The notes: generated from the sequence alone by a model not told the origin. 64,000 nucleotides of DNA from Balanoglossus misakiensis (GCA_040954595.2 CM082584.2:4158110-4222109); one strand, 5' to 3'. Shown: positions 16,410-49,140, counted from the first letter of the stretch. Numbers and translations: made by a program.

Positions 16410-16645
16410 GCTAATCCACATTACGTCATTACTAAATTTACAAAGAACGAGAACTCCCTCTACGTCATTGTAAATTTGCAGACCGATTGTTCAATTCGGG
16501 GTAAATGACCTTTGATTTCTTTGAACAGCTACGTCAAATCTTCCATTTACAGCAAGGATTTGGTAATCGCGGCCACTGGGTCCAAAGTTTAGGCAGTTAA
16601 CACCATCTTTGGCATGTAGTTGTTTACTTTCACGAAAGGTGAGTT
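16410..16645 (+). promoter_or_regulatory. Putative promoter and non-coding first exon of MSH5 copy B
   Basis: CpG-richer block with three TACGTCA CRE-like sites (~16422, ~16461, ~16530), GGCAGTT MYB-type motif (16592-16598) and a strong donor AAG|GTGAGT (GT at 16639). Conserved at 48900-49140. The ATG exon at 18193 has an acceptor, so an upstream UTR exon is required. Confidence 0.55.
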
Positions 16646-18195: not shown

Positions 18196-21100
18196 ATGAG
18201 TGAGCAGTTACCTGGTACGAGCAGAACTGGGTGTTTTCCAAGGACAAGAATCCACCAACCAGGCAACAACACTGATATGACTACTTTATCAGAGACATCA
18301 GACAATAATGTTTTACCAGATATGTCTGAAACGGATATTGAAAACAGAAGTCAACGTCAAACTTTTAACAATGATGAGGATGGCTCTCAGGTACTGTATT
18401 TATATTTATATTGTCCTTCTTCAAACTCAGTGGTCTAGCTGCATAGTAAGTGTGTAGTTATTCAAGCACATGGGTGATGCAATTTAAGTTCATTATCAGC
18501 CTGCATCGAAATAAATTTTTAAAAAAATATTTACATGGGTTTTAGTCCACGTAGATTAGGTAATTCAAGAACGGATTGAGTAGGTCAAGTTAGATTCGTA
18601 ACGTTTTTCACTCTGAAAATATCTGTGTCCCTCCAGAAACTGAACTGTTAAGTATATAAATGACATCAACACCATTTGGTAGTTTGTACTACTGTACTAT
18701 AGAAAGTAGGGACTGTCGCTATGGCTGTTTTGGATCATTCGGTCCATTTCTGTTGAGATTACAGATTCATTATATGCAACTGTTGAGGGCGCTGTTTTCA
18801 TCTGTATTTCTTGTGCTCCCTGTTTAGATATCTAGACGTACATAGGCTCCTCTCTGAAACCTTAGTTTCAGGGAGGAACCAACATCTAGGGACAAGACGT
18901 GCAACCTCTTGGCCCCTTTGAATGCAGATTAACAAACAAACAAATCTGCCGCATGGACTTTTTCCTAAACCTGGTGTGACATTAATGATTTATGAATTCT
19001 GGGCTTGATCATGAAGGTGACTAAGGGGTCAAAATGAAGCAATTGCCTCATCACCTCGGGCTTATAATTCCTTGGCAAACCCCTCCCCCCCCCCACATTT
19101 GTCCTGTATCGCCCGAAGTGGGCTCCCTTGGGGATAAGATGACATCGACTGCTGCATCAGGGGTCCAGTGTTCTCCCCAGGAATTTCTGACAGAGTGGTG
19201 GCTAATTTACATAACAATGTGGATAATTGTTATGTTAAAGAGTTTCTATTGTTTACCAAAAATTACAGAGTGTTGGCCGTGCTCTGGGGAGAACACTACA
19301 GGGGGGTCATATTGCATTGTCTGTTTGCTAATGTCACCATACATGTCTGAATTTAATCAAGCAAGAACTATTATCTGTTAGTCTTGAAAATTTGTAATTT
19401 TGCTTTTTCATAGATCATTATGAGTGTGATATGGGGTGGAGGTAAAGTTGGACTGGCTTATTATGACACTGAGACATGCCATATTCATCTGATGATGGAC
19501 ATTGCAGAATCTGATGATTTTCCGATGACTAGAAGTGGTAAGATTCATTCATTATACATTCATTTAGCTATTAAATGTTCTGTTGAAATATGCTGTTAGG
19601 GAGGGAGGGGCCATTCAGGTTTTTGTTTTTATTTGTTTATTTATTTATTTATTTGTTTATTGGTTTATTTATTTATTTATTTATTTATTAATTTATTTAT
19701 TTATTTTTTTTTGGGGGGGGGGGCAAACTCTTTATAGAAAAAAACACCCACTACCCTCAAAATATCAAAATAACAGTGACACCTCAGGTGGAATTTTCAA
19801 GATTGTCAAGTATTATACTAGTAATACAAATTATCAGCAGAAACTTTAAAAGGTAAAAAAAGCTTGTAAAGGGTAAAGTGTTACTGCTATAATATTTTAG
19901 TTGTTTACTTGTATTTGCCATTTTATTTGACTGTTGTTCAATACTCCCTCCTCCCCAGCAATTTTTAATACTGCATTTTTCAAAATTATTTGTTCCGAAA
20001 TTAGTTCAGAATGTGTTCCAACTTTTATGGTGACAGGTCATTCTCTACAGGAGCACCACGGTTGTGGAATAAGCTACCAATTTCACTCCGTAGCAGTGAG
20101 AATTTTAATGTTTTTAAATCCAACCTTAAAACGTTTTTATTCAGGGAATGACGTTTTATCCCAATTTTTAACCATTGTCTATTTTATTACACATTTGTAG
20201 CATTTTATTTGTCTTTGTATTTTTTAGCAGCTATGTACAGCGCTTTGGGATGTCTTTTTACATGGAAAGCGTTTTTTAAGAATTAAATATTATTATTTTT
20301 AACTATTTTACTCCCACCATGATGATAGCATTTGATTCTGTGGCCAGAGAGCATTCTGGGATACATATCCTAATTGTATTTGAAAAGGAAATGTCAGATT
20401 ATTGTATGACAGAAATTGTTAAAATTTAAACTTCAAATCTGAAACTGCCACCGAATCTCCTCTGACAGACCAACTATAACAATATGATTGTCACAATATG
20501 TTTATGGCATTTGATCTTGTCTTTCTAGTCGGCCAGCCTTAAAAGAGACATCCTTTGATTCTTAAAGGGGCAATTTTTCAATCCCTGGCTCTTGTTGATA
20601 CTGGTTAAATGTTTATCTGGTGCAAAGCTGTTGATTTCCATTGAAATCTTTATCAATCTATTTGCTTAAATTAGCTGAAGCTGACAAAGAAGGTTCCCCT
20701 TTAAAATGAGTCTTCAGAAATAACAAGTTCAGAGATTTCTAACATAGAATTGTTTTTTTGTCAGTTTCAAAGCAAATCATCCCAACATGTGTTATCACAA
20801 GCAGCAAACAAGATGAAATAATGTTACATTGTCTGTCTGAAGAAGGTATGAACAAATCTGGATATTAATTGTTTGTGACAACCTTATGCTGAATATGTCC
20901 ATTGTGGTTGAATTTGCCCTCTAGGGCTTCATAAACTACATGTAGTAGTAAATGCATTCTTATTAAAAGGAAAAAAGCACCAAGGTGTTTTTTCACATGA
21001 TATGGCAGGGACCTCACACCAGGCTGTACATATGAACAATTCATAGTCATATATGATGCTTAAATTGTGGTGATCAAAACACTTTACTCGTGTTGTTTGT

Positions 21101-24100
21101 GCTCTCATCTCATGTCTGCCCTTTTATTGATAACATTTAATTCATTTTACAGTGACTGCTCTTCAAGAATCAACTAGTAACTCTGTCGATCTACAAATCT
21201 TGCCAAATATTGATTTCTGTGAGTATACCGTGATTAGAACCCCTAATTTACCTAATATAAGCAGTGTTAAGGATGTACGCGCAGAACATAAACCGGAAAC
21301 TGCGAGCACTCGTCTTTTTCCCATAGGATTACATTTATAAACAAACTTCTACTATTGTCATTTTCACGAAATTTCACTCAAAGCTCAGTCCAGAAAATAT
21401 AAATTCATTGGTCAAATAAAATATAGGGGTCACTGCACTCTATTTTGAGATAAATTGCGTTAAAAATTTTGCCCATAGACAAACCATTGGTGAAAAATGC
21501 TGAGTCAGCAATTTTCTTCTATTATCGACTAAATTCATGGCTCTGTATTTCAAACAAGCACGGTGACCCCTATATTTTATTACGGATTTTCATTATACAT
21601 ACAAAGGAGAATCCAAAAATCCACAATTAAAAAAAATGACAATACTTTCAATTTTACTGAACGTACATCCTTAATGTAAACTTTAAGAACTTCATGAAGA
21701 AATTATATAAGGGCTCCAAAACATGAATTATGGCAACAATGGTCTATCATTTATGTAGTGGAATAGATAATATAATTGTTTTAAAATATTTTTGGTGTAT
21801 AAAGTCATTCAGATATCTGTATGTGTTGTTACATTACTGAAAACTTCAGAGACGAAAATAATTGCAAAGACGCATCCCCATTTGTTATGCATTTCTGTGA
21901 AATATTAATGTCTCATTTTGTTTTCATCAAAGCCTTGGAAGCTAGCAAGAGGAGAATCATGAATTTAAATCTAACCTGCGTCCCGGATCACTATACTGAA
22001 GATCAAAGACTTATTTATATGTCTTCATTAGTGCCATTCGAACAAATCAACATGGTAAGGTGGTTGGTGAAATAGTCATTGATAGATAAAGAGCATTGTT
22101 TTCCCCCTACTTTAAAGGGAGGTGTTTTCATTGAGCAAACTCCAACTAGGACCTAGTCATGACTAAAATAATCCTTACTGGTGAATATATTTGGTCCATG
22201 TCCACTTTTAGTTGAAGTCAGTGCCTTTATGAAAGTCATCACAAATCAAGTAATTTTCCAGCATTAATGGAAGTCATGTGTTATATCACTTTTCACATGT
22301 ATTCATGTTTCAGGTGCGTGCAGCCGGTGGTTTGCTGAAATATTTGGATAAGAACAGAATTGGAGTGGAACTTGAAGATCAAAGTGTCATAGTTCCAGTA
22401 ATTGGTCTTCAAGTATTCACTTTGTAAGTAGACTTTAGTGATTTTGCTGCTGTTATTGAAACAAAACATGTAGTGTCTAAAAGGGGCAAAGTTGCTCTCT
22501 TTTGATCTTTTTATGCTCCCCTGTCATACTGGGGGGGGGGGGGGGCAGGGGTTGGGGAGGGGGTATGTACATGTATATGGCTGGGGGGATATTCGTATAG
22601 CCTGTCTGTATTATGTAAGGGGAGGACCATTTGATTTCGGGGGGGGGGGAGGGTTTGGATTTAGTATAGTTTTCATGGTTTAGTATGATACATGTATAGC
22701 ATGGTACAGTATGGCGGCCCATTGCTGCCTTTGGTAAAATGCATAAATGTATATCTATAGTTTGTGTGTTTTTGTTTGTGTTTTTGTTTGTTTGTGTGTT
22801 TTTGTTTGAAAAGAAAATGAAAAGAAATTAAAAACAAAACAAAATAAAAATATAAATAAAATAAAAACGAAATTAAAAACAAAATTGAATAAAAAAAAAT
22901 TTGAAAAGAAAAGAAAACAAAAGAAAATGAAAAGAAATTAAATACTGGTCAACTGTTAAAAAAAACTATTACAAACTCCACTCTGCCTGTAGACAGACAA
23001 GATTAAACGTTCAAAGAATGAGTGTTCGATCTATCAAGGTAGTATTAAAGCCCCTATAGCTGCCAACTTTCACACATTTTTTTCCACAGTAAAATACTTC
23101 AAATATATTCCCTATCCTCTAAAATCCTCACCATTAAGCCATATTACTTGCATTTGCATCAGTTTCTCATCTCTTCATACTGTTTGTATGGAGGCTGATT
23201 AAATCGGTGCTGCACCGTTTTAATAAATAGCGGTCACAATCATGCATCGATAAGGTGTTCATGTATACCTATCAGTAAGCTTATTTAGATAAATCAATTT
23301 AACTTGGAAAAAAAATCATGAAAATAATGCAAAAAGTGGCAGCTCTAGAGGCTTTAAGGTGTGACATACAGCAAGGACTGCAGTAGACAAAGTATACATG
23401 GAGTATGTGTGTTGGTTCATCTGGTGAACATTCCAGTTGTAGGAAATAAAGTGTTTGATCTGGAGTAATTTCAAACACATGGCCGCGACTTGATCATGTG
23501 TGTGTTTTGGTAGTTATGTTTCTATACTTCATGTCATCGTTGTTGTTATTGTTATTGTTATTGTTGTTGTCTTTAATCTAGTGAGATAAAAAAAGTTATT
23601 GCGATTTTTTATGTTGAATCTTTCAGGAACAAGATGTTAATGGTTGACCACAATACTTACAATGCCTTGCAGATCTTTCAGAAGGAACTTCATCCATCCA
23701 TTTATAAATTTGGCAGCAGTGGTTCAAAGGAAGGTTTGAGTTTATATGGTAAGTTATTGTGTGCATGTATTATCATTTCATTCGTCAGTCAGTCTCATTA
23801 TATTGAACACCTATTGCCTGGCCATGAGGGCCATAGCAGCCGTTTATTACCCCCAAGGGGCTGTGAGTTACCAGAATCACATGCTATTTCCCCGAGGCCG
23901 TATATTTTTTTTTTCCTGCTATTTCCCTAGGGATTCATTCTATTTTCCATATCATGTGACGGATTCTGGCGAATCATGTCACAGTATTACCATGAGGTAT
24001 ACATGTATTATAAAATCCAATATGGTTGTCAAGGGGCAAATTCATGATCTATTTTCTATGTCTGGAGTGATTACTAAGATATGCCTTTGGGACCGTCTCA

Positions 24101-27100
24101 GATTGTCACATAAGCTCAACAAACGAAATAACTATGTTTCATGTCAATTTGTTTAGTGTACTTCACTTTCACACTTGTTTAGATGACCACAAAATTCCCT
24201 GTTATGTTTTTATTAAAGCAAAAACTAGTGGTGTACCAAAGAATCTACCTACATTCTGCCTCTCACTCTTGAAGTTCTCTGTTAATTATTCGATTTGATT
24301 AATTTACTGCGATTTTCTCACTCTGCAAGTGATCAGAGGCAAATGTTACTCAAAATCTTCAGCCAATCTTCAACATTGTAGTTTATTTCGGATATCAACA
24401 CTTAATTTTTCACACTTTTGAACTTTTGTTTAAGGGGAAGGGGTTTGGATCCAAACGAATACATTTTGTTTGTTGAGCTTAGGTGACTCAGACAACCTGA
24501 AATGGTCCCTTAGAGATCATTGGCCTTTATAGATAAACATTGTGCAATATCATACATTTTTTGTATCGTGTCTATTTTACTATCCAAAATATTGTAATGA
24601 AACAAAGACCACATAATTATAAACAAGATGGATGCCTCCAATGTCCATACGCCAATGAGAGCCATGTTTACAAAAGCCCGTGCCTGACCCTTTCCCTTTA
24701 GCGTAGCGCAGCCAGCGGTGGGAATGGGGCAGGGGACCAGACTACACCACCACCACCACCAACGACAAACATTCTGTTTGCTTTCGTTGTGTCACTGTTT
24801 CATGACATTTTAGTCGCAGGTGCACACATTATCCACACTCAGTAAAGAATATATGCATGGCGAACGGGAGGGGGGGGGATATTATGGGCGTGTCCCTGCC
24901 CAATTCTCCCTTTATATGATTGGACGTTCCACACATAGTGCCATGAAGCGTTTAGGGACTATGGACAGACTGTCCAAAATGTAGAACACATCCTGCACGC
25001 GTGTGACCAACAGATCGTATTGTCTGTGACCTACTTTACACTATTAAATGTATACTTTGAACCTTGTTGCACAAAACGTGTTACGCATGCGCTGACTGCA
25101 TTACCAAGGCTGTAGCGAATGCTTCTCTGGATCTGGTACCCGATCGAACAAGGCATCATTTGGCAACTAAGGTAAGGTTTCCTAAGTTGTTCATACGTCG
25201 ATTATTTTGGATGATGGTAGGAAACAATGATGATATTTTTGTTGTCCGTACAACCTTGAAAATCCCCTCATTTAAGCGAAAGATCTCTACAATACGTTCC
25301 GACTGAAACAAAATTTAACAAAAACACTTCCTGGTTCAGTAAACTTACACCCCAACAGTCTAAATGGTTGTATTGTTTTTACAAGATGAATCGCATTCCA
25401 CTAATTACGGACTATCACAAAACGTATCTTGACAATTTGATCAATGACATTATTGTGCAATCAATTTGAAATAATCATATCAAATCAAGAGTAAATACAA
25501 TTATTTTTTCCGTCCTCATGCGCGTAGATATTTGAGGTGTTATACATGAAAACAGTGTACATGGATATAGGTCATCCCTGCCTAGCATTTTGACCACACA
25601 ACTTTGACCACAAACATCATGATTCGCCCAAATCACGATATGTCATGAAATATGAAAGTGAAAGGGCAGTATGTTTACTATACAACTTTTATTTTTTTGG
25701 CTTGACAGTTTTTTAAAGAGATTTGAATCTTGCATGGATTTAGTGTTGTGTGTGCATTTTTTGTCAACCGTTTATCAACATACCTGTCACAAGTTCCAGA
25801 AAAAATCGACTCCCTTTAGCCTTAATACCAACGGATACATTTGTACACATTCCATAAAACTGACTTTACAGTAAAGAAAACGATTGTGAAATTGGCTAAA
25901 GTAGTGATTGCTTATTATCCGTATAAAAAATCTTTTGACCACAAGAATAATAAAAATAATTTGAGTACCTCAAAGCTAAAATCCTGTCCTGCACTAATTT
26001 TATGCACTTGTTGTTGATTTTTGTGCATTCCTTGATCACCTGAAAAGTCTAAAATTTCACCTCAATATTTTCGTTCAATAGATCGTAAACCCTAAGACAA
26101 GATGGCCACCGCAAATCCCGGGAAATCGTTTTCACAGCAGTTAATGACCGACATCGATGAGAAGATCTTGATTTGTCCAATCTGTCAAGATCGGATGACT
26201 AGACCCAAAATTCTACAGTGCGTGCACACCTTCTGTGAGAAATGTCTCCAAAAATGGGTCAGACAGAGAGGAGGTACCCTCGAATGTCCGACGTGCCGCT
26301 TTGTCACTCCGCTTCCCGAAAAGGGGGTCGAAGGTCTCGGTAATAACCTATTCATCAACGATATTATCGACATCTTTGACAAGCTGCAACCAACTGCTCC
26401 AGATTCGGTGACCTGTGACCTCTGTGACAAAAAAGCCGACAACTGGTGTAAAGAATGCGCTCAGTTCTTATGTGATGGATGTTGTCTGACACACATGAAG
26501 TTACGAACCACGAGAAATCACAAAGTCCTAACACTGGAAGAGTATAACAACATGGCCGAGTCTGGTCGGGATCACCTGATTCGTCCACGATTCTGCACAG
26601 TTCATCAGGACAGCCAGCTGGAACTCTTCTGCGACCACTGTCAGAAAACGGTTTGCGTGAAATGCGCAATAATCGGCCATAAAGGCACTGCGCACAACTT
26701 GGAATCGCTAGAAGATGCGTCGAAGAAATACACTCCCGAGATGCAAATCCTGGTCGACAAGTTAGCAACCATAGTGTCTTCACTCCGCGAAACTCAACAA
26801 GAGACAGATAGATTCATCAGAGAATACAACAAAAAGAAGAGCAAGGTGCAACAACAGATCAGACAGAAAGCATCTGACGTCATCAAACGAGTTCACAAAG
26901 AAGAACAGCGATTGCTGGATGAAGTGACGGCAATTGATGGAAAGATCATGAAGGAAGTGCAGGCAAAGGTCGAAAAACTGGAGTTTGATCTCGGCTGTGC
27001 TGAAAACATGAATGTCTACTCGCGAAGTCTGCTGCAACACGGCAATGCAGCTGATATACTTTCCCAGAAGAAAGAACTGATGCAGAGATTGAATGAAATC

Positions 27101-30100
27101 ATAAATGATCGTTCAACAGACCGATACGTTCCTCCACAAAACACCCGCCTTGTTTTTCAAGAGAACAGCCAGTGCATGCAACTTTCTCTTGGAGAAGTAA
27201 TCGACCAATCAGAAGTGACACATGCTGCACGTGTCAGCCAATCAGTTGATCGACAGAGACTACAACAGCAACCTGAGGCAACGACCGAGAAATCTGCGAT
27301 TAAAAGAGAAATGACCGACCAATCCGGGGTGTCAAGTATGTCACGTGTCAGCCAACCAACTGTCAAGAGGAAACAACAAAGACCTATTACTCTGGCCCAG
27401 AAGACTTCTGCTCCTGGAGTTGTTACTGGTAATATGCCAACGGGAACTATGGACGACACCTCTGATAAATATTCTATTTACATTACATATACGTTTGCAG
27501 ATGGAATACAAGGAGTAAGTAGTACAATGAAAATGGTTTGAGATGCACAGAAGGAATGTACTGACCATCGATTTGTTTATCAACATAGTCAAAAGAAAAC
27601 ACTCTTTTCACATTCAAGGTTAGACTTGCTCCAAGTCTATAGGCTTAAATTTCAGCAAAATTTGTTCTGATTTAATATAGCGTGTGTGGAGTGAACGCAT
27701 TAAGTTGTGGCATCGCGATAGTGATGAACAGTAACCGAAACTCAGTACCGAAATTCAACCAAGGCAAACAAACGTGTGAAGGGTAATGAGTAAAACTAAG
27801 AAACGAGGAACACCTGAATTAGTCAAGCGAATAGTGGGCTCAGTCTAATCCAAGGTGAAGATGAAAAACCGCGACTAGACCACAATGCATGCTTTAGTGA
27901 TAAGAATGTATCACCCTAAACAAACAATCTGTTATGAACTGTAACAATGAAAAAAATCACTGGTCTGTACATTTCTTCTGTGCATCTCAAACACCCTTTT
28001 TATCATTGTTGTTGTATATGTTTGAAGTAATGGTTTGGCTAAATGCGTTGCATACCTTGCAGTCCCAGCTTCTCTGTTTAAGTAAATTTTGAACTGTTCC
28101 TGGCTTGTCAATATCAATGTCAATATGGGGTATGATATAGAGGGCTGAAAAGTGGTCATGTTTAGTACCTAAGTCTTGCTGTTTCATTCACACACACGAA
28201 CACTTATCAGCTATTATATCGACTTAGTTAACTTCTTCGCAAATAATTTTTGTTTGTCAAACTTGGTATGCTAACAACAGAGATTCGTGTATCAATACAA
28301 ATTATTCACGCTACATGAATAAGTGTATTGGAAATGTTTCCTTAATGTCATCATAAACCTGAAAGTTTTGACAGAAAAAGACAGCCAGCCCATCTTGACT
28401 TGATGGCCGAAATCTCACAGAAAACGCTACAATCCATGTGTGGCTACACTTCATTGTTAGTGATGTTTTCGACTGTCACATTTTGATGATCAAAATGAAA
28501 GGAAACAGTCACCTCCCAAAATTGCACCTTCATGATTTCACCTTTTGTGGAAGGAATCAGATCATAATTGATATGAATATTTATTCCCCGCAGAATCCAA
28601 TATTTATTCTTAAAAGTTCAGTTAATAAACGCATCAAACACGAATGATAACTCAACGATTGGTGGGGAACTAACCAAAGCCACACGTCTTTCTCACTTTT
28701 CAAAATCTGAAATGTTGACAAGCGCAAGTTGTTTGTTTGAGAGAGAAAAATCTGCCGAAGCGCCCTCAACGGCTGTACGTAAGTGTGTGTCTGCCAAGAG
28801 AGTAACAAACTCCGTGATCAAGGAAACATGGGTTTATATCTTTCAAATTATTCCCTCAGTAAATTTTCCGCCAGATTCCAGTGTGATAAACAATTATTTA
28901 TATTTATTACACCTGATACGACATAAATCAGGACAACGTCATACAATGCTTCACAAGACTTGAATTATTATTTTAATTTTATTATTTTTTTATTTTATCA
29001 ACTCAAAAATAACTAAATACATATAAATTTGTAAATAGTTTTTTTTATAATTAGCCAAATTTTATTGTAGTATGACTAATAAATCATACGTTATTGTTAT
29101 TATTCTTACTAGTTATTTTTCATTTCCAAACCCTACATCTAATCAAGTATTTGTGTGGTTTAGAATGATGTTTTTTGCTTTGAATCCTTTGTCAGAAATA
29201 TTTCGATTTCGTCATATAATTTTGGTAAAATCTGACACCATACTCTACAAATTTAAAGAGTTAAGTACCAAAACTCCCAAGTCACGTGATTTACATGCTG
29301 CTTGTTTTGCAGCCTGAACATCCGAACCCTGGACAGCCATACAGTGGTGGTGAGTTCATAGGATTCATACAGGGCGATGACGAGGGTCGTGAAGTGCTGC
29401 GGCTGTTGAGGATTGCATTTGATCGCCGACTGACTTTCACCATCGATGGGGAATCAAACGAAGTAGTCTGGAATGGCATAACACATGACCAATATGGGTA
29501 AGTTTGATTTCCATTATTGCTATTTCATCACACTAACACCCATTTAATTTCAATTAACCAACAATACGTTACTTTTTTGTGATGTGTATCAGAAATTTAA
29601 AGGGCTCTTCAATCATGTCAGCTCTTGTTTCCCTGTGTGGTTTTGATGGCGAACTGGGAGAAAAAAACATACATTGTAGGTCATTGGAATAGTTATCAAA
29701 ATTAAAACAACACCGTTCCGGTGCCAGGAAAAGAGACACGTAACGTGAAATACATTTCGAGATCTCTATATGGAATGATTTTATGGAAATGCATAGGAAT
29801 CCAGCCCTGAAGGTCTAGGTCTCTGGTAGTGACAAAAGGGTACATACATAGGTTATAGCAAAAAAAAAAAAAAATCAAAGTATTTTGATCAGTTAGCCAA
29901 CAAATCAATAGTACCACAAGTCAAAATAGCAACGGCAAAGAACATACATGTATTGAAGCTCATTGAACATGTTTGAGCTCACCCGCTGATGGTGATAGTA
30001 TCTGTGCAGGTAACCATCTTACTTAATTTTCACATCTTTTGGTTTTATTGAACTACGCCTCTCGCACCTAAGTGTGTTCCTTGTAATGGGTACTAATGAC

Positions 30101-33100
30101 GTCAATAATCAAGTTATCAATTCTTTCAAAATATTAAGGGAATTGAAAATCAAAATCTACATATAGACACATTCTTATGTGACTCTCACTCAGACAGAAA
30201 CGACTTGCGCAGGTACCTATAAAATTATTGAAATGTTGATGAAGGGGATATTGACTGTTTTATTACAAACACATCCATCCGCAAGTAATTGTGTGACTGT
30301 TACAACGTTACACGCCATTGAAACTGGTAGTATAAGTCGAGTGTGCGATGTCGTTTTAAAATACACAGCTATAAGAATGTGTAATTCAACCTGCAATCCA
30401 TTGATTGACACCTATTCAGGTTACCCAAAATGGCTATAAATATTGCAGTGGCATGAAATATTCCAGTATTATAAATCCAAGTTGCGTCCAACCCATCCCT
30501 CAATGAATGTCTTGTATTTTGCATCTGTCCATCGCAATAAATTGATGCAGATAGAGAACACTAGCGCTTCTAACGTGACAATCAAACAAATACCAATTGC
30601 CAGATGGTAAAACTAACATGTATAGTTTTGATTGAAACCATCTGGCTTACGTTCATGGCACACTTTCAGCTCATATCGAAGTCTTGAGAATCATGGGTAT
30701 ATTCTTCAGAATTGTCATACTTCATTCATACTGGGATGGAATTTTGAAATCACTACATGTATTATATGGTTGTCCTTTGCATACTTACCCGAGTTAAATA
30801 TACTATTCCACATTCATCGGGATCATACAAAATAAACATAATATGTCTAGTTTTCAGTCCAAACACAAGACAGAATTGAGGTTTAACAGCTCATTGGACG
30901 TTCTTTGCCTGGGGATGCTCAAGAAATTGTGTTATTACACAAATTATTTGAACTCAATGCCATGAGACATTTGGCAGCTTCATTTGCACAAATATATCAC
31001 TAATTTGCTGCACATCATTTTAGAGTTTATAAACAGAGTTGTAAAATTTTCCAAATGCTAAACGTGTTAGTCAAGAATCTAAGTACAGTTAATGTCATCA
31101 CATACGAACAGGTATATTAGTGCCAAGTGTGGAATATTATTTCCTTCTATATCATGGATTAGGCATTGGTGAGATCCGATTATTAAGTGAGGTGTTATTT
31201 TTATAATGTCACTTTTAGGGTATAACTTGCTTCACAGAAGAGCACAATGCTGTATTTTTGTTATAAAACTTTGTTCTGTACTGTAGTTGTGTATATTTGA
31301 CATCTTCGTTTAATTTAATAATATTTCACTGTTGGCAACCAACAGTGGTTTGGCATCACGGACCATCAAAATTATTATTAGCTGCACAACGCGTATCACA
31401 CACTTGTGGGAGTGAAATCATTTCGTGCACAGTAATGGGAAAACTAATACATGTAATACTACACATTTATATTTCTCCAGGGGTTTGATCAGCTATGATT
31501 GGTCATCTTATGTTTCAAAAGTGAAGAAAGAATTGGCTGCAAAAGGAGTGGTGTAAATGTCAAGACGCCCTCACAACGTGGTTGTAGCCACCACATGGAA
31601 TGCATAATGAGAAAGACCTCAAGTGAATGTCAAGTACTCTGTGACGAATAGTCATTCTCTCTCAAATTATTTGGAGTTTTAGAAATATTTTATTGTATTA
31701 TACAGAATAAGATTTGGTAAAGGAAAGCTAGTGTAGAATAGGATTTTGTCAAGAAAAATGTAGAAGATAAGGATTACTCTGTGTGTAGTCACGGTATATT
31801 TCAAGTACAGAATTATCGCTGATCTGGTTCTGTTCATTTGGGATAATTGCCTAGTAATAAACTCTATAAAACTTTCAGCACAGTACACGTAGCCTACACA
31901 CTCGACATTTGGTCAGAAATACCACATTACCCCAAGTACAACGACTACTAATTGTTTTTTACCCATTGATTTGTAATATAAAAGAAGTTCATTTTTCTTA
32001 TACTTACCACTCAAATCTAATTCTTGCATATATCCAAGTTATTTTATGCAGTGAATGGGGTTTTAACACATTACTACACCGAATATAGATTTGAAAGCCA
32101 TGTCAATTTTTGCACAAATAATTCTGAAGATTTTTAAATTCCATCAACACGAATGATATCAATTTATCACATAATAATACGGTTTCTTGAATATAGTTTA
32201 ACAAGTAATTTTTTTAATCAATTATGTACATAAAATTTGTAACATGGGAAATAAAAGACCAATAAAAACCAATACTCATGGCTTTGTTACATCTGTAAAT
32301 CTAATAAAGCTTTTGTCTCCAAAGTTTTCATCTCAGCCACACATACTTACAAGAGGAAAAACTCAATTGCTCAGTGATTCGTTGTATACTTTTGAAGAAA
32401 TAACAAAAGTTTTAATACATCTCTATTATGCATACACTTTTATTTTTCATCCCCTAATTTCCCAGTCGTACTTTTGCATTTAGTTAACGTTGGATCCTAT
32501 GTATCTTGCAAATAATCTGTTCTGAACCTCTAGGCTAACACGTATCTAACTTTATATCAAGCTAGAAACAGAAGTGATATTCTGTTAAATAAAACAAATG
32601 TATAATAAGGTATGGACGTTGGAGACAGCAATCTATCCCATCATCCCCTTTTTTCCCGTACATGTTTCCAAAACTCTATCCCTATAAAATTTACCATCAC
32701 CGGCGGTCAATAGCCTAGTCTGGTCCTCTGCCCCATTCCCGCCACTGGCTGTGCTATGCTGAAAGACCCAAGGGTCAGGTATGGACTATTGTTAATATGG
32801 CTCTTATTGGTCAATAAATACGAACATTGTGATTGATGGACGAAAGCTATTTCAAACATTACAACCTCGAAGTTTGAGTTTGTTTGCCAATCAAAATATG
32901 CTTTGGTGAAGTTGAATAAGAAACATTCCTTATCAAACTATCGAATAGTCTGGTCCTCTGCCCCATTCCCACCGCTGGCTGCGCTACGCTAAAACGAAAG
33001 GGGTCAGGTACGGTCCGGTCTTGGCCAAAAACCTGGCCAGCATATTAAAATGAAACAAAGACCACGTGATCATAAACAAGATGGATGCCTCCAATGTCCG

Positions 33101-36100
33101 TATGCCAATGAGAGCCATGTTTACAAAAGCCCGTGCCTCAGACCCTTTCCTTTAGCGTAGCGCAGCCAGCGGTGGGAATGGGGCAGGGGACCAGACTAGT
33201 CACATAACAGCTTGTCTGTGTGCGCATTTACACACTCTCGATCCCCCACTCCCAGTGGCCAGGAGTGTGATATAGAAACCACATCCAAAACAACTTAGGT
33301 ACTTTTCTGTTCTTATTTTTTAGGAATAATGAATCAAACAAAATCAGACTTGGGCAAGAAAATGCTAAGGTAAACATGTAGTTACCAATGTGAGAAAAAT
33401 TAGTGAATGGTGAGAAGATTTTTGTATTATCCAAACTTGCAAACATGAATGAACCATGACATTACAAGTTTCCCTAGACAGTTGCAAACAAAATTGTTTG
33501 ACTGAGTGTATTTCTCCTGGCTAGAGCCCAGGGATCTGAACATCGAACATTTACAAGGGGAATGAGGGGTGCTCTTGTCCTAGCACCCACCTTAATATGT
33601 TAAAAAACTGTTGTACAGTAGATTTGCTAAAATAGAACATTTTATTTACTGAGAAGTAAAAGGATTGTGTTATACATACCTGATGTACAAGATGACAAGA
33701 AAATATTAAATGGGAAACCTACTTCTATTTTACTCATTTATTTCAACTGTAAACATCAGCTGGGGCTCTAAATAACAGGATATTGCCTCATAGATTAACC
33801 CTTTCACCACTATGGTCCGGTCCAAATCCATTGTTTTCTATGGGAAGGTTGGACCTCTATAGAGGGAACTGGGGGTGAAAGGGTTAAAGGGACAAAGTCT
33901 CTCTCTCGCTGCCCTTTTTTCCATTAATTATGTTTGATACAAGACACTGTTCATGTTAATGTACATGTGGATATATAGTGAATCAATGATCAACCACACA
34001 AAACTTCCATCCCACTTGTATGATATGAGAGTAAAAACTCGCCCAAAATGAATAAATGGTAAAGAACGATTATTCATTTTGGCGAGTTTTTTCACTCTCC
34101 TGTCTATAAAAGGGATGGAAGTTGTGTGTGGTTGAACGTTCATTCACTGTATATCCACATGTAGAATAACAAACAGTGTCTTGTATCAAATATAATATAT
34201 GGAAAAAAGGGCAGCGAGAGAGAGACTTTGTCCCTTTAATGGAAGTGGGGCCTTTGCCTTCAGGAGCAAGGCCTCTACCAAGAGAAATACAGTAGATTAA
34301 GTTTGTTTGAACCAATATTACAATGGACAAGATAATTGACTGGACAATTTTCAACATATCCTACGGGTAAAGATAGAGTTGGATGAATGACAATATTACA
34401 TACAAACATACATGGAATCCAAAGACCATTTATATCTTCATCAAGTTTTCAAAACCAAGAATCCCTTCCCATTTACTATAATGCTGTGTCCCCAATCATG
34501 AAAAATTGTTTTGATTTGCTCAGGATGTGGTTTTTGAGACCTGTACAGGATATTGATCTCCTGAAGGAAAGACAAGCTGCAATCAGTTTTTTTGTCTCAC
34601 CAAGAAATATTGAAGTATGCTCATCTCTACAAGACGCTCTACGGAATATCAAGAATGTCGCTGTACGTACATTGTGTATCTATCTACTAAGTATATTAAA
34701 GTATTTATAAATTTTGAAAAACAATTTTTCAATTTCATTATTGTTCATACCAATTTTGCAACAAGTAGACATATAAATTGTACTTACTTATAACAAATAT
34801 AACTTGTGAGTAGATGTTATTTTCAAAAATACCATATATCCGCTATTAATTTTAGATAAATTCTCTTTGTGTTTGGATTTTCTTTGATAGTTTGCATTGT
34901 GTGTACACGTGCATTGTATGTGTTAGAGTGAAAGGTCCATCGTCTGAGGGCACTCCCTATGTTAGCGCTCTTGAACGAATTGGATCCTGTGTGTGGAAGA
35001 ACCAAATACATTAGATTTATCAGAAACGTGTAGTACATGTATCTGTAGTATATCGCAAACATATGGATTATGTATTATTGTTCTTTTCTTTATTATTTCT
35101 AGAGAGTGTTGGGTCGGATGAAAACAGCTCAAGCCTCAATTGGTGACTGGCAAGCCTTATACCAGGTAATTTATACCAAGCTTTATATCTACTGGTCAAG
35201 TAAACAGTCTTCCAATAACTAATTCCCCTTGCGTAGTAGTTGTGGTCTTGCATCTTCTATTACTCTTAAAGATGTACTCGCAGAACATAAACCGGAAACA
35301 CTGCACGCCCTGTCTTTTTCCCATAGGATTACATTGATAATCGGTAGAAAACAAACTTCTACTATTGTCATTTTCACGAAATTTTACACATAGCTCAGTC
35401 CAGCAAATATAAATTCATTGGTCAAATAAAATATAGGGGTCACTGCGCTCTTTTTTGAGATAAATTGTGTTAAAAATGTTGGCCATAGACAAACCATTGG
35501 TGAAAAATGCTGAGTCAGCAGTTTTCTTCTATTATCGACTAAATTCATGGCTCTGTATTTCAAAAACAAGCGCGGTGACCCCTATATTTTATTACGGATT
35601 TTCCCTATACATAATATGACAGAACCCCATGGCTCGATCGTGCAAGCACGCCGTAACGGTAGTATTTGCATCGAGTGTCTGGCGGTGTATTCTTGCGCCC
35701 GTCCCCCGCACTCGCTGTCGCTCGTGCGGGGGGCAGCAAGAATACACCGCCAGACACTCGATGCAAATACTACCGGTACGCCGTGCTTGCACGATTGAGC
35801 CATGGGGTTCTGTTTTTATTACATATGTTCATCCCATTTTGAAAAAAAGACTGAAAATGAAAGAAATGAGACCGCGAATGATATTGCTTGTTTCTTGAAC
35901 AGGCCACTCATTTGCATACAGGTATGGCATAATGTTTTTGGTATTGCACTGAGTGCAAATACCGATGTTACGCGCGCGCTCGGTGCAAGTAATCGACGGT
36001 ACATATGTAATAAAAAGGAGAATCCAAAAATCCACAATTAAAAAAAATGACAATACTTTCAATTTTACTGAACGTACATCCTTAACACGTTCTGAACTAA

Positions 36101-39100
36101 TTTCGGAATTCCACAGTCTGAAAATAATACCTTCCCTATTTGAAAACATTCATAATTGATGAAGGAATAATAATTAAAGGTTTATAAATGTGACATTAAA
36201 TTTTTGTTTGTAAGCCTATAATTTGTGCCACATCAATTCTCTCCAAATTTCACAAAGTCACAAGTTAATATTTTCAGAAGACTTAGTAAATAAATCTACA
36301 ATAGGTACGCACTTTAAAGATAACTGAGATCATTGATATGAAAGAGATATCTTGTCTTAAATTATTTATTACGTGTTACTTGTAGACTGCCTACAATGCA
36401 ATATACATTGGTGATATATGCAGAGCTCAGACTGCTGATGTGGCCATCTTTAAGAAGGTAAGGAAACTTTCATAAACAATTTACATTTACTGTTTTGTAT
36501 TGGTTTTAGAAATGTAACAAATGAGTCTGTTAATGTGTAAGAAAAAAGTCGAGACTTTCTAAAATAGTCAGTGTTTGTTAATGTCACCTGTGATTTTTAT
36601 TCCTGTACACCTATTTCTGTGTAATTCCCAAATGGGAGCACAGTGTCCTTGACGCTATGTTTTTCTGGCTGATTGTTTTGAAATTTGGGTTACAGGTAAA
36701 ATATACATATATGTGCAACATTTATTACATTGTAATATCAGAAATTATTTAGCTAGTTTGTAATTTTCTTTATTTATTGTCAAAAAGCACTACATGTATT
36801 GATTCAATGGATGCAAAATGCAAACAATAGATATGCAATGCAGTGGGCCATCTGAAAGTCTTCTTTGCACCTGCACTACAATGATTGAGAGTTGAGAACA
36901 GGTCACAGGCCAAGAATGCACTATTTTGAAGCCCTACGAATTCATTTGTTTCCTGTGATTTTTATATGAAAATGGGTGACTTGTGGTTGGTGAAAACAAC
37001 TTCTATTGGCTAACCTTGCAACCTCCCAGGACAGATATATGCAGAGATCACCCTTGGTACCCTCCCCTATTAAAATATTACACACTGACTGCAATCTGAA
37101 TGAATGGTAAGAAGTGACACCTTGGTTGCATGTAACTCCAGTTTGTGTTTCATTATGACCGGGATGTGGCTGTTTTCTTCATATGCTCTTTTCACTAACA
37201 CATTTATTCCAAACAGAGATGTTCACATAGCTGCATGTCCTGACAATGTGATATTTACAGGCCTAATTGTAATTTTCTCCTTGTTGTTATTTTTTGACAG
37301 ATAAGCAGAACATTCACTGAGGATTTACATTATATTGCCGGCCTGATTATCAAAATTGTAAGACCTGGTTACTTTGTTTTAATGTCCTCCAGACAGACCC
37401 AAAATAGAGACATACTAGATTATCATAAGGCCAAAATAAAAAAATATGTGCTGTTCCGATTACCCGACCTACCCTAATTTTAACCCGCCGACCCTAAACT
37501 TTTTAGCGCTTCATTAACCCAGAAGTAAAAATAATGTCAAATATACAAAATTTATAAAAATTGCGCGAAATATGATGAAATCGCGCGCATCACGCAAGAA
37601 CTATGACATCTATCTTCTACACTAACACTGCCAGTTAAATAAAAAAAATGCAAAATAAAAAAATTTCCTACCTACATACCCTATTTTAAAAAGCAATGTA
37701 ATCGGAACAGCACATATTATTTTTGGGGGGCCTAATATCAATTATAATTTCTGTCCATGTACACTTCTGTATATCTGCAGCCATTGAATAGACATCAGTG
37801 AAAAATACAGGATAAGTACCGGGCAACAGCAATATAGCTTTCAAATATGAAACATGTAATTGAGAATGACTTGATTTAATACATTGATAAATTGGTGATG
37901 ATCTAATGTCTTTACAATGGTAAAATGATCAAAATATATTTTTGTTCATTTATTTAGTTATAATATAGTAAGAGACAGTATACCATATTTTCATGACTGT
38001 CTATGGATGGGAATAATGCAATAAATGCATTTTTCAGTGATGAGAATTTCTGAAGTGAAGTCAAGATGTTATTTAGCTAAATACTTGAAGAGAAAAAAAT
38101 GCACTTGTTATTTCCAGGTGGATTTTGAAGAATCTGCTGTTCTGAACAAGTTTGTTGTGAAACCAAATGTAGACAAGGCTCTGGATGAAAGTGAGTTGAC
38201 AATAGTAGATACTTGTTACTTCTATTAAAGGGACAAAGTCTCTCTCTCGCTGCCCTTTTCCCATTAATTATTTTTGATACAAGACAATGTTTATATTATT
38301 CTACATGTGGATATATAGTGAATCAACATTCGACCACACACAACTTCCATTCCGTTTGTAAGATATGAGAGTAAAAACTCGCCCAAAATGAATAAATGGT
38401 AGAGACCGATTATTCATTTTGGCGACTTTTTTCACTCTCGTGTCTACATGTGGGATGAAAGTTGTGTGTGGTTGAACGTTTATTCGCAATATATCCACAA
38501 TGTAGAATAAAATAATCAGTGTCTTGTATCAAACAAAATTAATGGAAAAAGCGTGAGAGAGACTTTGTCTCTTTAATAATAAATATTACACACACTCTCT
38601 ATCACATGCATATGATTATATTGTATGATAAAACGCCATAGGTTATGCCAGTAGGTGTATAATAATATTTATTTGTAATGACTGTATTCCAGAGAAAGAA
38701 ACGTACAATGGATTGCCAGATTTTATGACCAAGATTGCCAGAGAGGAGTTGAAGAAACTTGGTGATGACATCAAGGAATGCAATGTGGTGTATTTACCTC
38801 AGCTGGGTTATCTACTGGCTATTCCAAGATCTTCAATTATGTCAGAGAAGCAAGACTTTCAAATGCCATCGCTTGAGTTTGTGGTGAGTCAACTTTGAGG
38901 GTCTTGGTCCTACCACAGTACAGGACATTGATAACATTATTATTTGTTGTTTTTGCTATTTAAAGGTATACGGTCACCTACAGAAATTTAGCTATAGTTA
39001 CCATGGTAAACTTGAGATCTAGCCAATCACGGATTTTTAGTTCGTGGCACACGCGAAAAAAAGAGCGCCACCATATGTTCTTTAGAACATTCAAATATGC

Positions 39101-42100
39101 CATTTCAGCCATATACGGGCGTATGTAAATTGGAGGTGACTGTAAACCTTTAAGTTTATGTTTATACCATATAACCAAAGATGTTTTGAATATTATCCAA
39201 ACAGTGATCTTTTCCATGTTCACTTTGTAGTTCTTGTCAAATAATACTGTTCATTACAAGAGTGCCAGTACAAGAGGTGAGTAAATGTTTGGCTGTTTCA
39301 CACAGAGTTCATACATTCCTGGAAAAATCTTTGAAAGTTTTTAAAATGTGAAACCTGGAAAATCTGTAAGAGTTAATAAACAAATCACTGCCAGAGAATT
39401 CCATCTATTGTGATGCCATAAACATGACATGTTTTAACCTGAAGCAATGACTGGCCTTTTTAATCTGTTGATCTAACAGGGAATATATCAATGACATATG
39501 ACTTGTTATTACGTTACTTACCAGTAGCTTTGTTACAGTTGGGGAGAAATAATGAAAAGCTGAGAAATTTATATGGCTTGCCTGAGTGGTCACATGATTG
39601 TACCATGTTTAAGTTCAAGCAACCTTTTGATAGTTCTATTTTGGTTTTTGGCCAATCTTACAGCAATAGAGTTCAGTTCTACCTTATATTATTTCAAATA
39701 GCCATAATAAACACCCTTCTTTTCTTAATATGTGGGATTGTTTTTAAAATGTTAATACAATGCTTTGTGTCTAGAGTACATGATTATTTTTTTATAAATC
39801 TATTTTATTTTAAACTTTTTACTTTGTATTTTATGTCAAATTGATTTACTTTATTTTGTTTTATTTATGTTCGATTTACATTGTGATTGTTTTATTTGTT
39901 GTTTTGTTATGTTTTGTTTTGTTATGTTTGTGTTTGTTTTTGTTTTGTTTTTGTTCTTAACTGCCACACAAAGAGTTGCCTGAGGGGGGATGGTAAAGAA
40001 TAATGTTATTGGTGTTTGGTGTACACTTCAATCTTCAGAATTGGATGCAATACTGGGAGATACTCAATGTGAAATAACAGGTAATATTATTTTACTTGAA
40101 ACATTCTTATGTATTTTACTGCTGTTATATCCTTCTTAACAATAGCACAATGAAAAAAAATGTATTCAGATTATGATCAAAGCTGGTTCTTCATGGGGGT
40201 TTTTGTTCAAAAAAGTTTCAAACCAGCATCCCAGATACCTTTGAATTGGTCTAAAGCAATCATGAATAGACCCCCAAAAATTATCTGAAGGATTGAAGGT
40301 TTTTCAGAAAAGCCTGGTATTGATGCCATTATGTAAATCAATTAATTTGCATATTTAATCAATTTAGTTAATTAAAGAGGTAATGTTCAAGTTGTTGCAC
40401 CACATTTGATAAAATTGCCTGTGATCATACAAATTGTTATTTGAGAACTAAGTTTACCCAGGATATGTGGTCTCTTGTCATAAAAGAAGCAATCTCATTG
40501 GCTGTTTCCTGGCTCTTGAGAATACTATGAGGTTATCACCCCATATCACCTCTTGTTGGGCCATATTTGCCGTGAGTGTGGGTTGTGAGCTGCATCACAC
40601 TATATTGTATTGTATTGTATTGTATTGTATTGTATTGTATCCCATTGTATCCTATTGTATTGTATTGCAGACCATGAGACAACTATCATGCATAGACTTC
40701 AAAATACTATCTTAGAGCACAGTGAAGTCTTAAATGCAGTTCTGGAATATGCTGCTGAACTGGATTGGTAAGATGATAACAAAAAATATTTTCAAATATT
40801 TGTACTTGTGTGAATTCTATGGGATTCGTCACAAAATACCCGGTATGTGCATTGAACAGTTGGTAATTTTGAGCTATTGTAAAGTGGCTATTTGTAGTGT
40901 AGTAATAAAAGCCTTCTCGCAATATTAGTAAACCAGAGTCCCTCTATCAAGAGAGATCATGAGTAAACTATAATAGTATGTACATGAACATGTATTGTTT
41001 TGTTAATAATTTAGTACACCGGTAGTCAGCAGAAATTGATATAGAATATTAAAGCCAACATGCATTTGTGTTTCTTTTCAGTCTAATATCACTGGCTGTA
41101 TGCGCAAAGGAATATAACTACACACAACCAGTATTAACACAAAACAATGTAATACACATCAGAGGTGGCAGACATCCACTACAAGAACTTTGTGTCAGTC
41201 CATTTGTACCAAACGATACTCTATCTGGTGACAAAGGCAGCAAAATTAAATTTCTGACTGGTCCAAATTCAAGTGGTAAAAGTGTCTACATAAAGCAGGT
41301 AATGTACAATTCTCCCTACCTTAAATAGTGTTTTGCTACCTAAGTGAGTGATGAAAATCTCATATGGTCGACACAATTTCAAGATGGCCGATTTTTGGCA
41401 TGTTTAACAAACAGGAGTTCATAAGCTAAAGTGATGATGGGTCATTTTGAAACTTTTTAACAGAAAAAATATCAAAATGTGAAAAAAGTTTAATGAGTTA
41501 AAATGCTAACTACAGACAATATGTTTGACTAAAGAAATTCATGAAATACAGTAAACATATCATATTTCTTCTATCTCTTTAGTGGGTTGTCGACTTTTCG
41601 CCCAGAATGCAATGTGATTTGACCCCCTAGCGCAAAGTGAATACCTATTTAAGGCAGCCAGAATTGGAAGCATAATGATATCTGTCAGAAAAAAATTGAG
41701 AAGCCCTGCGCTCCTAACCCAATCTGATTAACATCAGATGTAGAGTTAGGCGGTGTCTTTACTTTTGCTGATTCTTGGCTGTTCTGTTTGGAAGGGGGCC
41801 AAGACAGAGAACAGAATAGCCAAAACTATCGTACCAGCACCTAACTCTGCATCTGATTAACAAGCAAAAAATACAGAAACAACAACCACAGTGTCATGAT
41901 AAACAACGCGGTGTCTTGAATTGAGCCGCCCACTCACGCGATCGAGCAGCTGACACAAGAAGTGGCCTGTGTCAAAGTCCCATCTTACGTAGTATGTAGC
42001 TGTATACCAGCAGATCCTTTCTATTTTTATCAAACTCTGTGTACCGGGTATATGTTGTTAACAGATCTGGGTGTTGGTAACCTGTGTTGTGAGGGCTACT

Positions 42101-48894: not shown

Positions 48895-49140
48895 CTAATC
48901 CACATTACGTCAGCTTAAATTATACTAAATTTAGAAAGAACGAGAACTCCCTCATACGTCATTGTAAATTTGCAGACCAATTGTTCAATTCGGGGTAAAT
49001 GACCTTTGATTTCTTTGAACAGCTACGTCAAATCTTCCATTTACAGCTAGGACTTGGTAATCGCGGCCACTGGGTCCAAAGTTTAGGCAGTTAACACCAT
49101 CTTTGGCATGTAGTTGTTTGCTTTCACGAAAGGTGAGTTT
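48895..49140 (+). promoter_or_regulatory. Putative promoter and non-coding first exon of MSH5 copy C
   Basis: Homolog of 16410-16645: TACGTCA x3, GGCAGTT at 49086-49092, donor AAG|GTGAGT (GT at 49133). Confidence 0.55.

What the first reader, a model, noticed from the sequence alone, without database searches (positions are those of the whole stretch)
23749..33323. Complete multi-exon gene nested on the same strand inside an MSH5 intron
Seen: MSH5 exon 7 (..KEGLSLYG) and the 46-nt exon 8 ([15 protein letters not shown], 33324) bracket a ~9.6-kb intron. It holds the TRIM gene with its own promoter-like region, four exons with strong splice sites and AATAAA signals (~31856, ~32229). The arrangement recurs in copies A and C. 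Known: nested genes are more often antisense to their host. Inference: MSH5 transcripts must skip the nested exons and read through their polyA sites, implying germline versus soma control or mutual interference between a meiotic gene and an E3 ligase.
Basis: partly seen in the sequence, partly recalled or inferred. Interest (0 to 1): 0.75.

Follow-up and report, generated by a model that had tools for sequence, protein, structure and literature searches.

The report
Immune-type ligase nested inside meiosis gene
In a genome that is likely an acorn worm's, an intact ubiquitin-ligase gene with its own introns sits on the same strand inside an intron of the meiosis gene MSH5, and the pair is repeated head to tail at least three times; MSH5 likely still splices across it and was likely duplicated as a passenger of the diversifying ligase, but no RNA evidence was available.

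Summary
The layout is real. Intron 23749-33323 (9,575 nt; the other 20 introns of this copy are 259-1,550 nt) splits MSH5 at a phase-matched GT-AG pair. Joined across it, 22 coding exons give an intact 847-aa protein colinear with acorn-worm and human MSH5. Both halves show purifying selection between copies (dN/dS 0.34 and 0.11). The nested gene encodes a 557-aa TRIM (RING, B-boxes, coiled coil) ending in a Deltex C-terminal domain that has lost the catalytic His582 equivalent. Corrections: no AATAAA at 32229; three of six nested splice sites are weak or middling; copies A and C each show half the layout. No RNA run was listed, so skipping and germline-versus-soma control are untested. Same-strand nesting is a known kind; this is an unusual variant.

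The parts
16400..16638 (+). MSH5 copy B predicted promoter and non-coding first exon (donor after 16638); three TACGTCA motifs at 16422, 16461, 16530
   Evidence: CpG o/e 1.07 and near-identity with copy C; motifs in both B and C, 6 of the 7 such sites in the window. Prediction only.
18196..23748 (+). MSH5 copy B coding exons 1-7 (18196-18390, 19414-19537, 20765-20845, 21153-21218, 21933-22054, 22314-22423, 23627-23748)
   Evidence: tblastn with hemichordate and echinoderm MSH5; GT-AG boundaries and open frame
23749..33323 (+). MSH5 coding intron 7 (phase 1, 9,575 nt), host of the nested gene
   Evidence: donor 10.4 bits and acceptor 8.5 bits in leave-one-out scoring
24850..25171 (+). TRIM predicted promoter and non-coding exon 1 (donor after 25171; start not determined)
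   Evidence: top-ranked donor in the intron; more conserved between B and C than flanking intron; GC-box-, CCAAT- and TATA-like words seen in the sequence
26082..27514 (+). TRIM exon 2 (ATG 26102): RING, two B-boxes, coiled coil, linker, start of the Deltex C-terminal (DTC) domain
   Evidence: Pfam zf-C3HC4 and zf-B_box above cut-off; 47% identity to Ptychodera flava P0105
26483..26677 (+). B-box tract of high divergence between copies B and C
   Evidence: 38 of 49 differences over 1,188 nt fall within 190 nt; 0 of 20,000 permutations reach this; dS 0.44, dN 0.075 for codons 101-205
29313..29497 (+). TRIM exon 3: core of the DTC domain; Thr at the position of DTX2 His582
   Evidence: Pfam DTC E=8e-15; alignments to DTX2, DTX1, DTX3L
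31481..32330 (+). TRIM exon 4: DTC end (stop 31554-31556) and 3' UTR with AATAAA at 31856, 32250, 32261, 32303; true 3' end not determined
32681..33292 (.). Insertion present in copy B only, holding a short inverted-repeat element (arms 32943-33013 and 33131-33201); a partial copy of the same element lies at 24584-24744
   Evidence: It is absent from copy A, so it is not a target-site repeat of the TRIM insertion.
33324..45784 (+). MSH5 copy B coding exons 8-22 (stop 45782-45784)
1..15107 (+). Copy A: end of TRIM intron 3, TRIM exon 4 (acceptor before 1254, stop 1333-1335), MSH5 exons 8-22 (2504-15107)
48790..64000 (+). Copy C: MSH5 promoter, coding exons 1-7 (53926-60308), TRIM exon 1 (donor after 61887) and exon 2 (ATG 62811) to the window end

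Best explanation
An intact, intron-containing TRIM ligase gene with a degenerate Deltex domain lies on the same strand inside MSH5 coding intron 7, and MSH5 likely still makes full-length mRNA by splicing exon 7 to exon 8 across it, while the TRIM is likely transcribed from its own promoter and ends at its own polyA sites. Shown by sequence: the nesting, the intact frames, three head-to-tail copies, purifying selection on both genes, divergence peaks confined to the TRIM. Inferred: (a) the gene arrived as DNA, since it keeps introns, probably from elsewhere on the same chromosome; (b) in MSH5-expressing (meiotic) cells the strong exon-7 donor and exon-8 acceptor win over the weakly defined 1.4-kb TRIM exon 2, and any leak into TRIM exons 2, 3 or 4 stops within four codons in copy B; (c) the two genes are mostly used in different cells; (d) the whole 31-37 kb unit was tandemly amplified and is kept similar by recent duplication or gene conversion, except at the TRIM B-boxes and the loop beside the DTC nucleotide pocket, so the TRIM is the likely target of diversification and MSH5 the passenger; (e) the DTC domain, far from the RING and without His582, is predicted to serve as a variable target-binding domain, not to ubiquitylate ADP-ribose.
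For: Joined MSH5-B is 847 aa, no stop, 21 of 21 introns GT-AG, 72% identical to P. flava MSH5 over 840 aa with the same residues on both sides of the junction. dN/dS between copies: 3' half 0.11 (A vs B, p=3e-7), 5' half 0.34 (B vs C, p=0.048; 0.21 without the variable first exon, p=0.012). Both halves are CpG-depleted in exons (o/e 0.33 and 0.25) while the TRIM coding sequence is not (0.83), which fits two differently regulated units (the link to germ-line gene-body methylation is recalled knowledge). TRIM dN/dS 0.21. Unit divergence 5.9% (A/B, 13,168 sites) and 3.6% (B/C, 9,943 sites), with 15-21% windows only in TRIM intron 3 up to exon 4, and 38 of 49 exon-2 differences in the B-boxes. Such peaks are a described signature of selection against gene conversion (PMC3924837, passages). 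The window TRIM groups with P0105 (100/99) inside a five-row hemichordate clade (99/97); the three DTC-bearing members share a loop deletion and lack His582 and lie on the same contig as MSH5 in P. flava (45,689,849 bp) and Glandiceps talaboti (28,834,500 bp), against 0 of 5 other TRIM relatives looked up in those two species.
Against: No transcript of this organism was seen joining 23748 to 33324. Gene conversion from a functional copy could keep non-expressed copies looking intact, and the array ends are outside the window. The 5' halves carry changes at conserved sites (B: Ile at two positions that are Arg/Lys in most of nine orthologues; C: Arg at a Pro invariant in 9 of 9), a hint of relaxed constraint. 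dN/dS within the B-box tract is 0.17, so there is no direct sign of positive selection, and the tract could be a neutral conversion from an older paralogue. The early stop on mis-splicing to exon 4 is not kept in copy A (16 codons). Same contig is not nesting: accession numbers of MSH5 and the TRIMs are 876-880 apart in P. flava and 101 apart in Glandiceps, and in Saccoglossus the closest relative (P0255, no DTC) is on a different scaffold from MSH5. Cell-type separation rests on general knowledge of MSH5 only.
Confidence: 0.65

Rival explanations
1. The nested MSH5 copies are young or conversion-maintained passengers that make little full-length mRNA; the working MSH5 is a TRIM-free copy outside the window.
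For: Changes at conserved residues in the 5' halves of B and C; 5'-half dN/dS only marginally below 1 (p=0.048); array ends not visible; no genome held to search.
Against: No stop, frameshift or broken splice site in 44 coding exons read across three copies; dN/dS 0.11 between the two 3' halves, both of which lie behind a TRIM; promoter nearly identical in B and C while introns have taken many insertions.
Confidence: 0.15
2. The nesting is itself regulatory: in somatic cells the TRIM exons and polyA sites act as poison exons and a premature terminator that switch MSH5 off, and germ cells suppress them.
For: In copy B, splicing exon 7 to TRIM exon 2, 3 or 4 stops after 277, 274 or 275 residues, and the exon-2 stop is kept in copy C; human same-strand nested genes cause exonization and cryptic polyadenylation of hosts (PMC3192792, abstract and section 6).
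Against: The exon-4 stop is not conserved in copy A; off-frame stops are common in AT-rich DNA; MSH5 has its own promoter, which could restrict it without help; no expression data.
Confidence: 0.12
3. The halves work as separate units: the TRIM promoter and exon 1 splice to MSH5 exon 8 and give an N-terminally shortened MSH5 from the Met in exon 8, while exons 1-7 end in the intron.
For: TRIM exon 1 has the strongest donor in the intron and exon 8 has an in-frame ATG near its start.
Against: Exons 1-7 are as conserved against orthologues as expected (71% to P. flava over aa 66-274) and under purifying selection, with no terminal exon of their own; 10 of 11 orthologue models examined run straight through this junction, and the eleventh (an older Saccoglossus model) lacks exon 8.
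Confidence: 0.04
4. The tandem repetition is an assembly artefact of divergent haplotypes; only one nested locus exists.
For: 3.6-5.9% divergence with large indels could be allelic in a very heterozygous marine invertebrate (recalled, not tested); read depth could not be examined.
Against: Three MSH5 copies are seen, more than two haplotypes; the two junctions between copies are homologous and themselves diverged by substitutions and insertions. The nesting would stand in any case, as it is seen whole in B and in halves in A and C.
Confidence: 0.04

Closest known systems
Same-strand nested protein-coding genes in human introns, e.g. KTI12 in TXNDC12 and CHML in OPN3 (PMC3192792: abstract, outline and section 6 read)
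   Same: Independent protein-coding gene in a host intron on the same strand; interference by exonization and cryptic polyadenylation reported there.
   Different: Here the nested gene has its own introns and a terminal exon (the exon structure of the human examples was not given in the section read; KTI12 and CHML being intronless is recalled), the host is a meiotic gene, and the pair is tandemly amplified.
Mammalian host/nested pair catalogue (PMC11694760: 12 passages read)
   Same: Nested genes sit in long host introns; both orientations occur at broadly similar rates; co-expression is often tissue-specific, notably in testis.
   Different: Mostly counts all biotypes; it gives no case in MSH5 in the passages seen; testis co-expression there cuts against assuming strict germline/soma separation.
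Deltex E3 ligases DTX1/DTX2/DTX3L (RING-DTC; PDB 6Y22, 6Y5N, 3PG6; PMC7615817 and PMC11460948, passages read)
   Same: DTC domain by Pfam (E=8e-15) and by alignment; Glu608 equivalent kept; the fold is recovered for the Glandiceps relative (Foldseek E=4e-9 to 3PG6).
   Different: No RING next to the DTC (the only RING is at residues 25-65, about 370 residues upstream); His582 is Thr; the His594 loop is replaced and differs between copies A and B; a five-residue loop is deleted.
Hemichordate and amphioxus TRIM-DTC gene models (P0105, P0106, P0257; RING-DTC-retaining P0256, P0258, P0267; RefSeq names 'TRIM56-like' or 'uncharacterized')
   Same: RING, B-boxes, coiled coil, then DTC; P0105 is the nearest relative (47% identity); P0105, P0106 and P0257 share the loop deletion and His582 loss and lie on MSH5's contig.
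   Different: Whether they are nested in MSH5 could not be seen; P0256, P0258 and P0267 keep a second RING and the catalytic His.
Divergence peaks in gene-converting tandem duplicates, e.g. primate red/green opsins (PMC3924837: 2 passages read)
   Same: Low divergence along a duplicated unit with sharp local peaks in one gene.
   Different: Here only pairwise comparisons of two copies per region exist, no functional site is proven, and the unit includes an unrelated host gene.

Membership tests
Nested (intronic) gene pair | Guest gene lies wholly inside one intron of a host gene | tested here: met
   TRIM 25171-32330 lies between MSH5 exons ending 23748 and starting 33324
Nested (intronic) gene pair | Host halves form one gene (phase-matched sites, one open frame, colinear with orthologues, selected) | tested here: met
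   847-aa frame, GT-AG, dN/dS 0.34 and 0.11
Nested (intronic) gene pair | Host mRNA is actually spliced across the guest | not testable with these tools
   no RNA holder listed
Nested (intronic) gene pair | Guest has its own transcription start and 3' end | tested here: inconclusive
   conserved promoter-like stretch and AATAAA excess; no transcript data
MSH5 (MutS-gamma subunit) | Full-length orthology, with the ATPase Walker A motif | tested here: met
   best hits all MSH5; 72% to P. flava, 45% to human MSH5 over the whole length; motif visible in the alignment
TRIM (RBCC) ligases | RING, one or two B-boxes and a coiled coil in that order at the N terminus | tested here: met
   Pfam RING 25-65 and two B-box stretches; long helices after the B-boxes in the model of relative P0257
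TRIM (RBCC) ligases | Ubiquitin ligase activity | not testable with these tools
   needs a biochemical assay
Deltex E3 ligases | DTC domain | tested here: met
   Pfam PF18102 55.6 bits, cut-off 25; PDB hits
Deltex E3 ligases | RING joined to DTC by a short linker | tested here: not met
   single RING at 25-65, DTC starts near residue 436; feature from PMC7615817
Deltex E3 ligases | Catalytic His582 and Glu608 (DTX2 numbering) | tested here: not met
   His582 aligns to Thr (numbering fixed from the 6Y22 chain, where offset 387 places Glu608 and His594); Glu608 kept
Retrogene | Loss of parental introns | tested here: not met
   two introns inside the DTC coding region and one predicted 5' UTR intron; the RBCC part is one exon
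Selection-maintained divergence peak under gene conversion | Local excess divergence at functionally different sites with homogenised flanks | tested here: inconclusive
   clustering is significant but dN/dS in the B-box tract is 0.17 and no outgroup copy was available

The most novel reading that the evidence does not exclude
A rapidly diversifying immune-type TRIM whose target-binding end is a repurposed, catalytically dead Deltex domain is locked inside a meiotic crossover gene, so that selection for more and different TRIM copies multiplies MSH5 as a passenger, while the TRIM's exons and polyA sites double as a somatic off-switch for MSH5; the linkage may date back to the ancestor of two acorn-worm families.
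Probability: 0.2. Interest if true: 0.72.

Novelty: new variant of a known kind. Interest (0 to 1): 0.48.

Why it matters
It offers a compact natural test of how a host transcript ignores a same-strand guest with real splice sites and a terminal exon, with a host whose expression should be confined to meiosis and with three copies distinguishable by SNPs. It also shows how nesting can tie the copy number of a conserved recombination gene to that of a variable ligase. The guest defines a TRIM-plus-pseudo-Deltex architecture that I did not find described. If RNA shows only that both genes are made normally, it remains a good but ordinary example of nesting.

Tried and rejected
RNA evidence: no RNA holder listed for window:40600-44100, so no reads could be laid. 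No whole genome is held, so array ends and other MSH5 copies were not searched. Metagenome scan with MSH5 exon 9 gave 2 loci from 490 candidate stretches; both have no intron at this junction and resemble spliced cnidarian-like MSH5 sequence, so they say nothing on nesting. Accession-number adjacency as a proxy for nesting: inconclusive. Direct repeats flanking the TRIM (24584-24744 and 33037-33198) as marks of the insertion: rejected, the right copy is in an insertion absent from copy A and both are ends of one short inverted-repeat element facing the same way. Recursive splice sites: only the TRIM exon-1 donor matched the pattern, without a pyrimidine tract. TRIM-MSH5 fusion proteins: TRIM exon 2 or 3 joined to MSH5 exon 8 is out of frame (472 and 558 aa products); exon 2 would be in frame with MSH5 exon 10 by phase arithmetic, untested. 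CpG-to-TpG substitution rates between copies: too few sites to separate TRIM from MSH5. The structure model was of relative P0257, not the window protein; mean pLDDT 69, pTM 0.29, so only domain folds were used. Literature: no paper held all of MSH5, nested gene, intron; searches for TRIM with Deltex/DTC, hemichordate TRIM or nested genes, MSH5 tandem copies, multi-exon same-orientation nesting and MSH5 with intronic or overlapping genes listed nothing on this locus or architecture by title and abstract start; the DTX3L evolution preprint 10.64898/2026.04.23.720386 has no occurrence of TRIM, B-box, hemichordate or amphioxus in its main text (supplements not seen). Subscription journals and hemichordate genome-paper supplements were not searched.
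Full report
Observation. The window holds parts of three head-to-tail copies of one unit, 30.8 kb from exon 8 of copy A to exon 8 of copy B and 36.6-36.7 kb from B to C. Searches with one exon returned MSH5 proteins, best from hemichordates and echinoderms, and tblastn with them mapped the exons. Copy B is complete: 22 coding exons from 18196 to 45784, 21 of 21 introns GT-AG, an open frame of 847 codons. Coding intron 7 is 23749-33323, 9,575 nt; the other 20 are 259-1,550 nt. The joined protein is 72% identical to Ptychodera flava MSH5 over 840 residues and runs through the junction as 10 of 11 orthologue models do. The organism is likely an acorn worm; it is not P. flava, Glandiceps talaboti or Saccoglossus kowalevskii as annotated (64-72% identity).

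The nested gene. On the same strand, exons 26082-27514, 29313-29497 and 31481 onward encode 557 residues: RING, two B-box stretches, a coiled coil (helices in the model of relative P0257) and a Deltex C-terminal (DTC) domain (Pfam E=8e-15; DTX2, DTX1, DTX3L in the PDB). A non-coding first exon is predicted from a donor at 25171 that ranks first of 557 GT sites in the intron and from a stretch more conserved between B and C than its flanks (7 of 319 against 123 of 1,968 differences, p=0.002). Three of the six nested splice sites are weak or middling by a matrix trained on only 21 sites. Copy A shows the TRIM's last exon 1.2 kb before MSH5 exon 8; copy C shows exon 7 followed by TRIM exons 1 and 2. 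A simple tandem duplication of a TRIM lying beside an intact MSH5 would not place it between exons 7 and 8 in every copy, so insertion into the intron came first (inference).

Is the host alive across the intron? No stop, frameshift or broken site was found in the 44 MSH5 coding exons read (15 in A, 22 in B, 7 in C). dN/dS is 0.11 between the 3' halves (17 synonymous, 7 replacement changes; p=3e-7) and 0.34 between the 5' halves (6 and 8; p=0.048). Exons of both halves are CpG-poor (o/e 0.33, 0.25), the TRIM coding sequence is not (0.83), and TRIM introns are slightly richer than MSH5 introns (0.69 against 0.54, p=0.026); this fits a guest that escapes the host's germ-line gene-body methylation or arrived recently (interpretation from recalled knowledge). 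Against full confidence: three replacements in the 5' halves hit conserved residues, conversion can preserve silent copies, and no RNA was available. Mis-splicing from exon 7 into TRIM exons 2, 3 or 4 of copy B stops after 277, 274 or 275 residues; the exon-2 stop is in C too but the exon-4 stop is not in A, so I do not treat this as a selected feature.

What differs between copies. Collinear blocks differ by 5.9% (A/B) and 3.6% (B/C), mostly 1-10% per 300 sites, but by 15-21% over about 900 nt of TRIM intron 3 up to exon 4, and the first third of exon 4, the loop that carries DTX2 His594, is unrelated in A and B. In exon 2, 38 of 49 differences between B and C fall in 190 nt across the B-boxes (0 of 20,000 permutations), with dS 0.44 against 0.02-0.05 elsewhere and dN/dS 0.17. 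So the TRIM carries tracts much older than the rest of the unit. That is what selection against gene conversion leaves (PMC3924837, two passages), or what conversion from an older paralogue leaves; the data do not separate these.

The DTC domain. Deltex ligases need a RING next to the DTC and the His582-Glu608 pair to ubiquitylate ADP-ribose (PMC7615817, passages); DTX3L uses the same site for single-stranded nucleic acids (PMC11460948, passages). Here the only RING is about 370 residues upstream and His582 aligns to Thr. Of 22 relatives scanned with Pfam, 8 TRIM-like proteins carry a DTC hit together with a B-box (P0105, P0106, P0256, P0257, P0258, P0267, P0275, P0287), named from acorn worms and amphioxus. 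P0256, P0258 and P0267 keep a second RING and the His; P0105, P0106 and P0257 share with the window protein a loop deletion and loss of the His. A tree of the RBCC part of 20 rows (the window protein and 19 of the hits; the rest were left out) puts the window protein with P0105 (100/99) in a clade with P0106, P0257 and the DTC-less Saccoglossus P0255 (99/97). A model of P0257 matches DTX3L DTC and TRIM2 RING by Foldseek. The protein is therefore a TRIM, not a Deltex ligase; it likely uses the DTC as a binding domain.

Age. P0105 and P0106 are on the same 45,689,849-bp contig as P. flava MSH5, and P0257 on the same 28,834,500-bp contig as Glandiceps MSH5; 0 of 5 other TRIM relatives looked up in these species are. 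The linkage is thus older than this lineage, but chromosome-level synteny makes the two species one observation, accession numbers are not adjacent, and Saccoglossus P0255 lies on another scaffold than its MSH5. Whether the nesting is ancient or a local jump is open.

Comparison with what is known. Same-strand nesting is documented: 53 of 158 human protein-coding nested genes in an older count, 31 after re-evaluation, some interfering with their hosts (PMC3192792, section 6), and near-equal orientations in a 2024 catalogue that also reports frequent co-expression in testis (PMC11694760, passages). Earlier notes of this scan list other same-strand cases, one multi-exon with RNA support in Euglena (unchecked). 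I found no paper on this locus, on nested genes in MSH5 or on TRIM-DTC proteins in the searches, judged from listings; subscription journals and supplements were not covered.

Verdict. The feature is real and the host most likely still splices across it (about 0.8 for that step alone; 0.65 for the whole account including the passenger reading). The germline-versus-soma or interference idea is plausible but untested. Novelty: new variant of a known kind. Interest 0.48; 0.72 if the passenger-plus-off-switch reading (probability 0.2) holds.

Noticed in passing
window 16422, 16461, 16530 and 48906, 48955, 49024: Three TACGTCA (CRE-like, label recalled) motifs in the MSH5 promoter of both B and C; only one other such site in the 64 kb.
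   Followed up: partly
window 15107-16400 and 45784-48790: MSH5 copies are packed head to tail with only about 1.3-3 kb between stop codon and next promoter; MSH5 is usually single-copy (recalled).
   Followed up: partly
P0256, P0258, P0267, P0275, P0287, P0260, P0262: Close RBCC relatives in acorn worms and amphioxus end in different modules tied to ADP-ribose or RNA biology: RING-DTC, DTC alone, WWE-PARP, an OGFr fragment; suggests frequent swapping of the C-terminal module.
   Followed up: partly
window 11697-12125, 47914-48302, 46983-47607 and 50207-50819, 49233-51779: Several short inverted-repeat elements and a 2.5-kb insertion in the first intron of copy C, present in only one copy each.
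   Followed up: no
window 27192-27358: Two 53-nt imperfect direct repeats in the TRIM linker coding region, where relatives P0256 and P0258 have a second RING.
   Followed up: no
P0154: An older Saccoglossus MSH5 gene model skips the 46-nt exon 8 exactly at this junction, while the newer model P0010 has it; probably a prediction error.
   Followed up: no
window 44058-44060: In copy B the last bases of MSH5 exon 21 differ from copy A, changing Glu to Asp and weakening an already weak donor.
   Followed up: no
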